Shown here: positions 21,972-46,633 of the stretch, piece after piece
Layout of the letters: the number at the start of each line of letters is the position of its first letter
Numbering within the stretch: the stretch's first letter is position 1
Origin: Eledone cirrhosa
Taxonomy: Eukaryota
DNA length: 64,000 nt
Reading direction: 5' to 3'
Assembly: GCA_964016885.1 (NCBI GenBank)
Contig: OZ024749.1
Location: 39,928,001 to 39,992,000, forward strand
Made by a program: the position numbers and the translations under genes
The notes under the pieces: generated by a model
What the model was told of the DNA's origin: nothing
Seen by the model: the letters and a program-made list of their open reading frames with translations, nothing else
Databases searched by the model: none

Positions 21972-22036
21972 TATTTTATCTGATGAAAGCACACCATAAT
22001 TTAACTTGGTGTCCTTGAAATATGTATAATGAAATA
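21972..22036 (+). ncRNA. Type I hammerhead ribozyme motif (HHR1)
   Basis: Stem I tattttat/atgaaata; CTGATGA at 21980; stem II aagcacacca/tggtgtcctt (9/10 paired); GAAA at 22017; short stem III a-tatgta-t; AUA triplet, predicted cut after 22028. Confidence 0.8.
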
Positions 22037-23135
22037 AATATGGTTTTATAAATATAGTTTCCATTTGTTAATATATCGTATTTTTACTCCAATAATTTGT
22101 TGAGTGCTTTATATCAGTTATAAAAATATTTGCTTGTTGTATCCCAACAATTTAAATAGAACTTCTACATATATATATATATACATATATATATATATAT
22201 ATATATATATATATATATATATATATATATATATATATATATATGTGTGTGTGTGTATATATATATATATATACATATATATATATATATATATTAAAAT
22301 AACAGATTAAAGTTTAAGCAAAGAATCACTGCTTTCACCCTTAACGGGATCATACATACATACACACACACACATACACACATACACACACACATATATA
22401 TATATATATGCATATATATATATACATATATAGTATTAAATAGTATATATATATAGTATGTATATAGTATTAAATAGGTCGAAGGCCTTCGATCTATTTA
22501 ATACTATATAATGCTCCGGCTTGTACCATTTATACGTCACACACACACACACACACACACACACACACACGCACGCACGCACGCACGCACGCACGCACGC
22601 ACACACACACACACATATCTCTCTCTCTCTCTCTCTCTCTCTCTCTATATATATATATATATATATATATATATATATATATATATAAATCGTTATATGG
22701 AGACTTCTCTTTGAAATTGAAGTGTCTTGGCCAGTGATACCATACAGTGTAACCAACAGGAAACCAAGGTCGTTGACCTCCGTTACCATCACAACCACTA
22801 ATACCACCGTTACCAACACCACCACCAGCACTGCTGTTATTACCATTAAGACAATGCTATCATCCTCACCGCCATTACTACCATCTTGTCTTCTCTTCGT
22901 CAAACAGAGCAATGCAGTGACCACGTGACAAGGCAATGCCAGTTTCTTACATATTCCAAATACTAACCACACACACACACAGAGACATACACACACAGAG
23001 ACATACACACACAGAGACATACACACACAGAGACATACACACACAGAGACATACACACACAGAGACATACACACACACAGACATACAGACAGACACACTT
23101 TTTGTAGCGGCCAAGATAAATTTTTATCATTTTGA

Positions 23136-23315
23136 GGATCGGACGCCATGCTTTGACGCATAGAGTTACGGCCCTTGTCATTCTGACTTCAAATCCCGCC
23201 GAGCTTAACTTTTTCCTTTCATCCTTACGGGGTCGATAAAATAAAGTACCAGTAATGCACTGGCTAATCGCTGGCCTTGTGCCTAAAGTAGAAACAATTA
23301 TTATTATTATTATCA
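23136..23315 (+). mobile_element. tRNA-derived SINE (major family), 5' truncated
   Basis: B-box-like ttcaaatccc, central ctttcatccttacggggtcgataaaataaagtaccag, (ATT)n tail. Confidence 0.85.
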
Positions 23316-23349
23316 TTAAGGTTGGTGTCATGGTCGCTTTTCTTGATCT

Positions 23350-23892
23350 ACTCGTTGCTATTACTGCTGTTGTTGTTGCTGTTGCTGGTGCTGCTGCTGT
23401 TGTTGTTGTTGTTGCTGCTGCTGTTATTGTTGCTGCTGCTGTTAATGCTGGTATTGTTGTTGTTGCTGCTGTTGTCGTCGTTGTTGTCATCATCTTTGTT
23501 GCTGTTACCATCATCATTGTTGTTGTTGTTGTTGTTGTTGTTGTTGTTGTTGTTGTTGTTGTTGTTGTTGTTGTTGTTGTTGTTGTTGTTGTTGTTGTTG
23601 TTGTTGTTGTTGTTGTTGTTGTTGTTGTTGTTGTTGTTGTTGTTGTTGTTGTTGTTGTTGTTGTTGTTGTTGTTGTTGCTGCTGCTGCTGCTGCTGCTGC
23701 TGCTACTGCTGGTATTGTTGTTGTTGCTGCTGTTGTCGTCATTGTTGTCATCATCTTTGTTGCTGTTACCATCATTATTGCTGCTGCTGCTGCTGTTGTT
23801 GTTGTTGTTGTTGTTGTTGTTGTTGTTGTTGTTGTTGTTGTTGTTGTGTGCTGTTGTTGTTGTTGTCGTCGTCGTCGTCGTTGTTGTTGTTG
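23350..23892. repeat. (TTG)n/(CTG)n compound microsatellite with an internal duplication
   Basis: Direct inspection. Confidence 0.9.
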
Positions 23893-24055
23893 TAGAAGCA
23901 ATTATTTTAACTATGTATATATGTATGTACGCATGAATGCAAGAGTGCATGTATGTATTTATATATGTATTATGTATGTATTTGTTGCTATGATATGTCT
24001 ATCTGAATTAAACAAGCAAGAAGCATGGATTTGAAATATACCACACTATGAAAAT

Positions 24056-24231
24056 ATTTGTTTCTACTTTTGTCACAAGGCCAGCAATTACACCAGTGCA
24101 TTACTGGTACTTTATTTTATCGACCCCGTAAGGATGAAAGGCAAAGTTTACCTCGGCGGGATTTGAACTCAGACCATAAAGGGGCGTAACTCTTTGCTGC
24201 AAAGCATGGCGTCAGACCCTCTACCGATACT
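24056..24231 (-). mobile_element. tRNA-derived SINE (major family)
   Basis: Reverse complement of the same head, core and tail. Confidence 0.85.
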
Positions 24232-45300: not shown

Positions 45301-45347
45301 ATTTAAATGGTGTGTATATATATATATATATATATATATATATATAT

Positions 45348-45918
45348 AGGGCGGGTAAAATTCCCGAGATCCATGGACGAGTTCTCTCCAGCGGCTCTGT
45401 CACTCATTATCGCTGTCATGTCCTGCGTCTCCAACAGACCACTGTCTGTCCTTAGGGCATCAACATATGTTAACCTCGGTCTTCCTCTTCCAGTGTGTCC
45501 ATGCAGGGGCTCCCACTAGACCATTGAGTGCACTGTCAACTCTGGATGTCGGTGAACATGTCCAGCTAACTTCAGTCTCCTCTGTGTCACTTTTGAGCTG
45601 ACTTTTGGGAGGCTGCCGTACAGCTCTGAGTTCTTCATCCTCAGTGTATACTGATTAATGTTCAGAGCCATTACTAATGTAGGCGGGAAGCCGCAAGAAT
45701 TGGTTGAGGACTTCCTGTATTTGGGAGCAAAGATTGGGAATACGGAAGATGATGTGGTCGAGAGGAAGAGCAAAGCCTGGGCGGCGTGCCACAGCTTGAG
45801 ATCGGTGTGGAAGTCGGACCTTCGTTGCTGTAGTGGAGTCTGTGCTGCTGTACGGGTCTGAGATTTGGACACTGACCAAGAAACTCACTCAGATGGTGGA
45901 TGGGTGCTACACGAGAAT
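45348..45918 (-). mobile_element. RTE-clade LINE fragment with a 5' inversion
   Basis: Minus 45348-45671 encodes MALNINQY...RRLKLAGHVHRHPE. Plus 45670-45918 encodes the upstream part VEDFLYLGA...VESVLLYGSEIWTL...DGCYTR. Confidence 0.85.
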
Positions 45919-46022
45919 ATATATATATATATAGAGAGAGAGAGAAAGAAAGAGAGTTGGGGAGAGAGAGATATTATATATATTTATTATATATATTGTA
46001 TATATATATATATATATATATA

Positions 46023-46218
46023 TAATCAAGGAAGTGTGGTAAGGAACCAGGTGGACCATAACGCACCAGAGTACTCGATATTTAGGGTAGTAGAGTGGGT
46101 AATAGGAAAGGAGTCAGGACCCTGACGGCTCAGCTACGGCCGTTTCGACAGCTAGGTCTGAACTCCTAGCTGTCGAAACAGCCGGAGCTCACCTGTCGGG
46201 GTCCTGACTCTTTTCCTA
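46023..46218. mobile_element. Family P fold-back element
   Basis: Imperfect palindrome centred on gacagctagg-tctgaact-cctagctgtc (46147-46174). Confidence 0.7.
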
Positions 46219-46564
46219 TATATATATATATATAATTGGTTATGCACGAGTGCATTAATGTTTTCCAGGACACAGTGTTATGTACCGTGTAGTGGAATGT
46301 CAGCTTACAACAGAGTGGTGCTCAACGAAATGCAGAAAAAAGGTGTATATTCCAGTTTAGCTATATTCCGGGGCGTGTATAAAGAATTAAAAAGAACAGA
46401 AAGATGCAGTAAAAGAGATTTATTCGGTTCTTACGTACGTTTCAATAGACATCTATTTGCCTAGATCTCGCTACATCTATAATATTATATATTTAGTAGA
46501 GCATTCGATATCCAATGCACAATCGATCCCTTATCATCAGAGATATATATAATATATCCATGAC

Positions 46565-46633
46565 TTTTCATCTGATGAGCGAACTAGACATATATTAATA
46601 TTGTCTAGAGTCCTGAAACCGTGGGTAATGGAA
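46565..46633 (+). ncRNA. Type I hammerhead ribozyme motif (HHR3), somewhat degenerate
   Basis: Stem I tttcat/atggaa; CTGATGA at 46572; stem II core ctagaca/tgtctag; GAAA at 46615; stem III acc-gtg-ggt; GUA triplet, predicted cut after 46627. Confidence 0.7.

What the first reader, a model, noticed from the sequence alone, without database searches (positions are those of the whole stretch)
21972..46633. Three sequence-divergent hammerhead ribozymes with shared architecture in short (TA)n-bounded modules
Seen: HHR1 (21972-22036), HHR2 (37342-37412) and HHR3 (46565-46633) each have a CUGAUGA...GAAA core, a paired stem I, a long stem II and a very short stem III (palindromic ATGCGCAT in HHR2). 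Stem II sequences differ but still pair, and HHR1 and HHR2 have their mismatch at the same fourth position. Known: type I hammerheads with short palindromic stem III, cleaving as dimers, mark Penelope-like element pLTRs and retrozymes. Inference: these are ~250-450-bp non-coding, TA-associated Penelope-like or retrozyme families with an extended stem II variant, and a standard repeat annotation could miss them.
Basis: partly seen in the sequence, partly recalled or inferred. Interest (0 to 1): 0.75.

Follow-up and report, generated by a model that had tools for sequence, protein, structure and literature searches.

The report
Retrotransposon hammerheads with a long arm
Three hammerhead ribozyme motifs here are the leftover ends of three multi-copy families of Penelope-like jumping genes, a known pairing, but their second arm is longer than in published relatives, is missed by the standard search model, and keeps a fixed mismatch that likely matters for folding; self-cutting is predicted, not tested.

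Summary
The three type I hammerhead motifs are real, at the stated coordinates. They are not non-coding retrozymes. Each is the 3' end (pseudo-LTR) of a different Penelope-like retrotransposon inserted in (TA)n. Longer copies elsewhere in the genome join each end to an RT + GIY-YIG ORF with Hydra-clade motifs, and a complete 743-aa element exists for family 1. Exact 30-mers of HHR1 and HHR2 occur 3,963 and 2,329 times. Copies end at two fixed sites about 90 nt apart (body and tail), never at the predicted cut, and form no short tandem arrays. HHR1 and HHR2 share a covarying long helix II with an invariant C·Y mismatch at position 4 (0 of 16 paired). HHR3 is built differently, and its covariation is not significant. 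The '450-bp module' at HHR3 is mostly a fourth element on the minus strand, whose hammerhead has a 90-nt domain II. Rfam misses all three but finds a short-armed control. Hammerheads in Hydra elements, including an octopus one, are published; the longer arm is an incremental variant. This scan noted the same kind of motif before elsewhere in this genome (e1-9545524). Cleavage is untested.

The parts
21909..22168 (+). Family 1 Hydra-type Penelope-like element: 5'-truncated 3' end (body to about 22078, then an optional tail of about 90 bp), followed by (TA)n
   Evidence: 96.9% to the ORF-linked copy L121; 86-91% to full elements L179, L180, L183; ends at +46/+51 and +141 from the cut
21972..22036 (+). 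HHR1, type I hammerhead: 8-bp stem I, helix II of 3 bp + C·C + 6 bp, 2-bp stem III with a near-palindromic loop; predicted cut after 22028
   Evidence: 3,963 exact copies of its 30-mer, reversed control 0
37180..37282 (-). Family 2 tail, inverted in front of the body
   Evidence: 92-93% to the tails of L188 and L196, which follow the body directly
37282..37445 (+). Family 2 Hydra-type element: 5'-truncated 3' body without its tail, followed by (TA)n
   Evidence: 92-95% to ORF-linked copies L187, L188, L196
37342..37412 (+). HHR2, type I hammerhead: helix II of 3 bp + C·U + up to 12 bp, perfect 8-nt palindrome at stem III; predicted cut after 37404
   Evidence: 2,329 exact copies of its 30-mer, control 0
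46551..46668 (+). Family 3 (older) Hydra-type element: 5'-truncated 3' end without tail
   Evidence: 81-86% to ORF-linked copies L280, L261, L286; 1,799 first-look candidates
46565..46634 (+). HHR3, type I hammerhead: helix II of 1 bp + C·C + interrupted helix, 3-bp stem III with triloop; predicted cut after 46627
   Evidence: 82.7% of cells paired, but no excess over shuffles
46236..46544 (-). Family 4 Hydra-type element end with tail. It carries an unlisted hammerhead: core 46540-46534, 90-nt domain II, GAAA 46443-46440, palindromic stem III, predicted cut after 46432; the 5' strand of stem I is partly lost in this copy
   Evidence: 99% to ORF-linked L085, L125, L126
22169..22294 (.). (TA)n target behind family 1
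37138..37179 (.). (TA)n target in front of the family 2 insertion (another at 37443-37471 behind it)

Best explanation
The three motifs are the hammerhead-bearing 3' ends of three Penelope-like retrotransposon families, likely of the Hydra clade, left as 5'-truncated copies in (TA)n repeats, and their hammerheads are predicted to cut the element's own RNA, HHR1 and HHR2 likely as dimers. Shown: full elements read pLTR (hammerhead body + tail), short 5' UTR, one RT + GIY-YIG ORF, 3' UTR, hammerhead body. Copies stop at two sites about 50 and 140 nt past the predicted cut and often carry an inverted 5'-truncated copy. Inferred mechanism: the element's protein nicks (TA)n and starts reverse transcription inside the RNA at either site. 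It often stops 100-150 nt upstream of the cut, which gives the 190-260-bp modules; a strand switch would give the inverted tail of the HHR2 module. Because inserted copies span the cut site, the template was uncut when copied. Cleavage would be a separate, probably weak or protein-assisted step, with the two pLTR copies about 4 kb apart pairing through palindromic stem III. The long helix II and its C·Y mismatch are under selection (covariation shown for the HHR1/2 type); their role, likely a contact with stem I or a protein, is inferred.
For: ORF linkage: family 1 L180 (inverted body+tail 3349-3112, body 3378, tail to about 3640, 743-aa ORF 3681-5909, body 7675), also L179 and L183; family 2 L188, L187; family 3 L280, L286, L261; family 4 L085, L125, L126. 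Hydra motifs of Craig 2021 section 11 are seen in the ORFs. Ends of incidentally recovered copies: family 1, 24 of 46 at +45 to +51, 21 at +135 to +141, 1 other; family 2, 10 and 10 of 20; none within 3 nt of the cut at either end. Inverted pairs 32, 7, 17 and 14 against direct pairs 4, 1, 1 and 0 in 68, 71, 94 and 35 loci. Covariation: 86.6% of cells paired against 69.3% shuffled, 16 of 22 pairs changed on both sides, 0 of 500 shuffles as high, position 4 unpaired in 16 of 16. Dimer fold -23.0 against 2 x -6.0 kcal/mol for HHR1 and -32.1 against 2 x -6.4 for HHR2. Internal initiation, tails and use of uncut RNA are shown for another Penelope-like element in PMC11167929.
Against: No cleavage, expression or transposition was measured. 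HHR3 shows no covariation above shuffles within its family (122 of 500 shuffles as high on pairing). The minimum-energy folds of the monomers do not form the core. Clade assignment rests on motifs and by-eye likeness to Hydra-1_Obim, not on a tree. Pfam gave only a sub-threshold GIY-YIG hit for the family 1 endonuclease (E 0.0023) and none for its RT piece or for the family 4 pieces. Units of families 1 and 2 are 4.3 and 4.0 kb, longer than the <3 kb of described Hydra elements. For family 3 only the C-terminal part of the ORF was seen. Only 3 of 6 distinct copies joined to the 5' UTR start at -135 to -152, so a transcription start there is weakly supported. Related sequences can beat the shuffle control without structure; the slid-partner control (33-50% paired) is the better one.
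Confidence: 0.85

Rival explanations
1. Non-coding non-LTR retrozymes: short hammerhead units that are cut out, circularised and mobilised in trans.
For: Short modules, type I hammerheads with palindromic stem III, thousands of copies; many young copies start at -98 to -136 and so look like a fixed unit.
Against: All three ends continue upstream into coding elements. Direct pairs under 1 kb are rare, 3 in 68 loci for family 1 and 1 in 71 for family 2, and are not arrays. No end lies at the cut. By eye, the first 100 places listed hold 14 inverted pairs under 300 bp and no direct pair under 1 kb.
Confidence: 0.05
2. The parents are Penelope-like elements as above, but the hammerheads are catalytically silent or nearly so in vivo, and the fold serves as a protein-binding or RT-positioning signal.
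For: Copies span the cut site. In PMC11167929 hammerhead mutants did not affect insertion and no RNA reads ended at the cut. Published Penelope hammerheads cleave weakly (PMC4209133). The first stem II pair is A-U or G-U rather than G-C in most groups.
Against: Core nucleotides and the stem III A-U pair are invariant across 16 divergent variants, and the palindrome is kept through sequence change, as expected if catalysis is selected.
Confidence: 0.25
3. Chance matches in AT-rich, microsatellite-rich DNA.
For: Low folding z-scores; no Rfam hit.
Against: Shuffle control 0.01 hits per window, thousands of copies, position at element 3' ends, cross-family covariation.
Confidence: 0.01

Closest known systems
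Hydra-clade Penelope-like elements and their hammerheads, incl. Hydra-1_Obim (Craig et al. 2021, PMC8557442; section 11, Files S1 and S2)
   Same: Single RT + C-terminal GIY-YIG ORF, DKT, CxCX5C linker, no CCHH, CxxC/CxH around E and N, (TA)n targets, type I hammerhead near the 3' end; HHR3's stem III with a triloop resembles several listed Hydra motifs.
   Different: In the 26 Hydra rows of File S2 the core-to-GAAA spacer is at most 26 nt (my count); here it is 30-36 nt, and 90 nt in family 4. No C·Y mismatch is listed there. Units of 4.0-4.3 kb with long 3' UTRs.
Minimal hammerheads of metazoan Penelope-like elements (Cervera and de la Peña 2014, PMC4209133)
   Same: Type I, in pLTRs, short palindromic helix III suited to dimers, mostly solo truncated copies, inverted pairs 100-700 bp apart, helix II larger than canonical (6-8 bp, one bulged case).
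   Different: Helix II of 9-16 bp with an internal C·Y mismatch, 8-bp helix I, G10.1-C11.1 not conserved.
PAc Poseidon of Anolis (Frangieh et al. 2024, PMC11167929)
   Same: Two reverse-transcription start sites downstream of the hammerhead that define an optional tail; AT-rich targets; uncut RNA as template.
   Different: Here the tail is about 90 bp (60-140 across families) rather than 30-40 bp, and both sites lie upstream of the start codon (about 45 and 80 nt before it in L180 and L188), not inside the ORF.
Non-LTR retrozymes (PMC7229834; bioRxiv 10.64898/2026.07.22.740005)
   Same: Type I hammerhead with weak helix III; derived from or related to pLTRs.
   Different: Retrozymes are non-coding tandem arrays; these are solo or inverted ends of coding elements.
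PLE-X hammerheads of Selaginella (File S2 of PMC8557442, marked as deviating)
   Same: Precedent for a long domain II (9 bp + 35-nt loop) in a Penelope-like element.
   Different: Plant, endonuclease-less, rDNA-targeting elements; no C·Y mismatch listed.

Membership tests
Type I hammerhead ribozyme | CUGANGA, GAAA and UH core in type I order with stems I-III | tested here: met
Type I hammerhead ribozyme | Covariation of the stems | tested here: inconclusive
   Met for the HHR1/2 type; not above shuffles for HHR3's family
Type I hammerhead ribozyme | Match to an Rfam hammerhead model | tested here: not met
   No hammerhead family at E <= 10; a short-armed motif from the same genome hits RF00163 at E 1.5e-5, below the gathering score
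Type I hammerhead ribozyme | Site-specific self-cleavage | not testable with these tools
   needs an in vitro assay
Penelope-like element (EN+) | One ORF with RT and C-terminal GIY-YIG endonuclease upstream of the hammerhead | tested here: met
   Family 1 intact 743 aa; family 2 in pieces; family 3 C-terminal part; family 4; 322 full-length relatives
Penelope-like element (EN+) | pLTRs, inverted 5'-truncated copy, optional tail | tested here: met
Hydra clade | DKT in place of DKG | tested here: met
   Families 1, 2 and 4; that region was not recovered for family 3
Hydra clade | N-terminal RWK motif | tested here: inconclusive
   RWR in family 1, RWI in family 2, RWK in relative P0002
Hydra clade | CxCX5C linker; CCHH absent; CxxC and CxH around the conserved E and N | tested here: met
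   All four families in alignment A3, read by eye; CxH of family 3 from L261/L280 DNA
Hydra clade | Insertion into (TA)n | tested here: met
Hydra clade | Generally shorter than 3 kb | tested here: not met
   Repeat unit 4,297 bp (L180) and 4,021 bp (L188); a descriptive, not a defining, trait
Hydra clade | Placement in the RT tree with reference Hydra proteins | not tested
   Reference sequences seen only as text in a supplement; likeness judged by eye
Non-LTR retrozyme | Two or more short tandem units, each with a hammerhead | tested here: not met
   place lists
Non-LTR retrozyme | Non-coding unit | tested here: not met
Non-LTR retrozyme | Circular RNA monomers | not testable with these tools
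   needs RNA data

The most novel reading that the evidence does not exclude
Penelope-like elements in this lineage have turned hammerhead domain II into an expandable module. An invariant C·Y mismatch stands in for the canonical loop 2 and docks on stem I or on the element's protein, and the arm grows from 12 to 116 nt, with three-way junctions, while the core stays active. This would define a class of natural long-armed hammerheads that current descriptors cannot see, and it would mean that counts of hammerheads and claims of 'hammerhead-less' retroelements are underestimates.
Probability: 0.35. Interest if true: 0.65.

Novelty: new variant of a known kind. Interest (0 to 1): 0.4.

Why it matters
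The association itself is known. What is added: (1) a natural series of hammerheads, with covariation, whose domain II runs from 11 to 116 nt, missed by Rfam, with an invariant internal mismatch that is a sharp, testable handle on how type I hammerheads dock stems I and II without the canonical loop; (2) young Hydra-type elements with intact ORFs and two precisely mapped end sites, which extend the internal-initiation model to a second clade and show that hammerhead cleavage does not define the inserted copy.

Tried and rejected
Rfam over the whole window gave only microsatellite-driven microRNA matches among the 150 rows shown of 275. The 1,166-aa ORF at 28755-32255 is an APE-type LINE, not the parent, and no Hydra-type ORF lies in the window. 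The 3,770-bp repeat at C28 holding family 3 copies contains no ORF and looks like a local duplication. The ORF upstream of the family 3 copy in L272 belongs to another family that ends in front of it. No solved structure matched the family 1 protein. Sequencing runs: no RNA holder listed. Four contig sets were laid on L180:3378-4400; they show loose ends at 3543-3550 and 3640 running into (TA)n and nothing on expression. The end test excluded 3' ends at the cut by its own filter and was redone without it. HHR3 covariation failed. No genome-wide scan with the covariance model was made, so the diversity of these motifs is sampled from about 1.3 Mb of fetched, TA-rich loci only. Lünse et al. 2017 (small hammerhead variants of Penelope-like elements) was not available and may describe related variants; the supplements of the 2026 preprint and of PMC4209133 were not seen.
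Full report
Observation. A strict descriptor found HHR1, HHR2 and a motif at 52943; 2 of 200 local dinucleotide shuffles gave one hit each. HHR3 passed only the relaxed descriptor. Folded alone, the motifs are not clearly better than shuffles, and Rfam lists no hammerhead for any of them at E <= 10. It does recognise a short-armed motif from the same genome (RF00163, E 1.5e-5, below its gathering score).

Setting. The window lies in a 3.0-Gb microsatellite-rich animal genome. 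That it is a cephalopod is my inference: the only relative with a species name is from Argonauta, at 39%. Each motif belongs to a multi-copy family. Exact 30-mers of HHR1 and HHR2 occur 3,963 and 2,329 times, with reversed controls at 0. The HHR3 end gave 1,799 first-look candidates, the best at 86-93%; that is not a copy number. Cores are intact in 81 of 90, 64 of 68 and 73 of 95 distinct fetched copies.

Anatomy of the modules. Family 1 (21909-22168) has a fixed 3' end at (TA)n, variable 5' truncation and frequent inverted copies that stop about 90 nt short of that end. The family 2 module is an inverted tail (37180-37282) joined to a direct body (37282-37445); other copies carry the same tail directly behind the body. 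HHR3's element is only about 46551-46668. The stretch 46236-46544 is a separate, 98-99% identical family on the minus strand. Among copies recovered by chance in the flanks of unrelated loci, family 1 ends at +45 to +51 (24 of 46) or +135 to +141 (21 of 46) from the predicted cut, and family 2 at +50 to +55 (10 of 20) or +135 to +141 (10 of 20). No 5' or 3' end lies within 3 nt of the cut. Inverted pairs far outnumber direct ones: 32, 7, 17 and 14 against 4, 1, 1 and 0 in 68, 71, 94 and 35 loci for families 1-4. This is the pLTR / inversion / tail pattern of Penelope-like elements (PMC8557442, passages), not that of tandem retrozymes (PMC7229834 passages; bioRxiv 10.64898/2026.07.22.740005 part 1 of 5).

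Parents. Walking upstream joined every end to a coding element. In L121 the family 1 end (96.9% to the window) follows a broken RT + GIY-YIG ORF. A related subfamily (86-91%) is complete in L180: inverted copy, body, tail, ATG about 45 nt later, 743-aa ORF, 3' UTR, body; unit 4.3 kb. Family 2 has the same plan in L188 (4.0 kb, ORF in pieces). Family 3 follows a GIY-YIG ORF end by about 300 nt in L280 and is also linked in L286 and L261. Family 4 follows its ORF by about 400 nt. The proteins show the Hydra-clade marks listed in section 11 of PMC8557442: DKT (families 1, 2, 4), CxCX5C, no CCHH, CxxC and CxH around E and N, and (TA)n targets; RWK appears as RWR or RWI. By eye the family 1 protein follows Hydra-1_Obim motif by motif. 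No tree was built. Pfam support is weak, and the units are longer than the described <3 kb.

The hammerhead variant. A pattern that fixed the core, stem III and stem I but not stem II found 213 motifs in 18 groups. In the 14 groups with two or more members, positions 2, 3 and 5-9 of helix II pair in 12-14 groups, while position 4 is C·C (11) or C·U (3) and never paired; 0 of 5,000 shuffles reached the score. On 16 of the 18 group representatives (two with register-shifting indels, L238 and L172, were left out; the window copies stood in for their own groups), 86.6% of cells pair against 69.3% shuffled and 33-50% slid, all 11 helix II pairs change on both sides, and position 4 is unpaired in 16 of 16. 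HHR3 is different: C·C at position 2, an interrupted helix, a 3-bp stem III with a triloop, 16.6 bits under the HHR1/2 model, and no covariation above shuffles among 18 copies. A relaxed scan of 1.32 Mb of fetched DNA gave 403 motifs with spacers of 11 to 116 nt. In 10 long ones that I folded, most close into a helix, some with three-way junctions and with compensatory changes between copies (L007/L291, L119/L222); one (L072) did not fold that way. Family 4 in the window has a 90-nt domain II (z about -2.0) and a palindromic stem III.

Mechanism. Shown: element layout, two end sites, copies spanning the cut site, covariation for the HHR1/2 type. Inferred: nicking of (TA)n by the GIY-YIG domain; reverse transcription started inside the RNA at either end site, as shown in vitro for PAc, where the tail lies between two start sites and uncut RNA is the main template (PMC11167929, parts 1-2 of 4); early stops or strand switches that give the short modules. 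Young copies often start at -98 to -136 (7 of 10 in family 1; 4 of 9 at -121 to -126 in family 2). Both window modules start there (-119, -122). That may mark the RNA's 5' end, but only 3 of 6 distinct copies joined to the 5' UTR start at -135 to -152. Cleavage would most likely be by dimers for HHR1 and HHR2: the modelled dimer is 11 and 19 kcal/mol below two monomers, and a full transcript holds two copies. It may be weak or protein-assisted, as in published cases (PMC4209133, parts 1-2 of 4; PMC6765202 passages).

Novelty. Hammerheads in Hydra elements are published, with an octopus example (File S2 of PMC8557442). In its 26 Hydra rows the spacer reaches 26 nt, so 30-36 nt is a modest extension. 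Larger helix II was noted in 2014, and a Selaginella element has a 35-nt loop 2. I found no report of the position-4 C·Y mismatch or of 40-116-nt branched domains in animal elements in searches, but Lünse et al. 2017 could not be read, and some supplements were not seen. This scan has noted long-armed retroelement hammerheads elsewhere in this genome (e1-9545524); that note came after my reading was formed and is not independent evidence. Verdict: a real feature, a new variant of a known kind, interest 0.4.

In passing. A 515-bp non-coding repeat of this genome, not in the window, forms tandems and carries a hammerhead core in scrambled order with covarying pseudoknotted stems. By eye, three nematode and spider Naiad ends in File S5 of PMC8557442 read as complete type-CSG hammerheads (compare PMC10085705 section 15 and passages). 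Searches returned only those two papers, and earlier notes of this scan report scrambled hammerheads in this genome and in Naiads.

Noticed in passing
   Followed up: yes
window 52877-52998; tails 52157-52220 (-) and 53196-53259 (+): A fifth family: short-armed type I hammerhead (core 52943, 4-bp stem III with 8-nt loop) in a head-to-head inverted pair; 15 motifs of this family among the fetched loci. Parent ORF not sought.
   Followed up: partly
window 21773-21828, 37064-37140, 42261-42341, 46028-46223, 58733-58810, 59239-59639: The abundant SINE-like repeat beside all three motifs is the 3' end of another Hydra-type element (ORF in L272). It holds the 3' half of a hammerhead with a 5-bp stem III; none of 68 copies had a canonical core within 110 nt upstream, most being cut inside domain II and folded back.
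   Followed up: partly
L065:2302-2407 (+), L322, L032, L051, L064, L260, L336, L258, L179: A 515-bp non-coding (TA)n-inserted repeat, in tandems at several places, with a hammerhead core in the order cleavage site, GAAA, CUGANGA and a branched domain II; 95.2% of cells paired in 8 divergent copies, 9 of 31 pairs changed on both sides. The layout resembles the octopus Naiad 3' ends seen; no parent ORF was found.
   Followed up: partly
PMC8557442 File S5, entries read (by file order Naiad-3_Nbra, Naiad_Hpol, Naiad_Smim): By eye, all three nematode and spider Naiad ends shown that are flagged 'HHR_half_core' read as complete type-CSG non-circularly permuted hammerheads with an extra helix joining stems I and II; Naiads are published as lacking canonical hammerheads. 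Not run through any tool.
   Followed up: partly
L184, L180:8095 (-), L007, L291, L119, L222, L081, L098, L035: Further type I hammerhead families with domain II of 42-116 nt, most with palindromic stem III; some have three-way junctions, and two show a C·Y mismatch at position 4 as well. Parents not established.
   Followed up: partly
window 28755-32255 (+): Intact 1,166-aa LINE ORF (endonuclease, RT, zf-RVT), with an upstream ORF region at 26943-28821; unrelated to the hammerheads.
   Followed up: partly
window 51157-51185 (+) and 16205-16297 (+): Two more CUGAUGA cores: 51165 with a very short stem II and a palindromic stem III but a poor stem I, and 16213 without GAAA; possibly decayed motifs.
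   Followed up: no
window 525-13399: A 12.9-kb array of 252 copies of a 51-bp unit with strong strand skew and open frames of thousands of codons on both strands.
   Followed up: no
window 21909 and 37282, and copies: 5' ends of young copies of two different families cluster 100-140 nt upstream of the cut, and both tails end at exactly +141; unexplained beyond a possible transcription start.
   Followed up: partly
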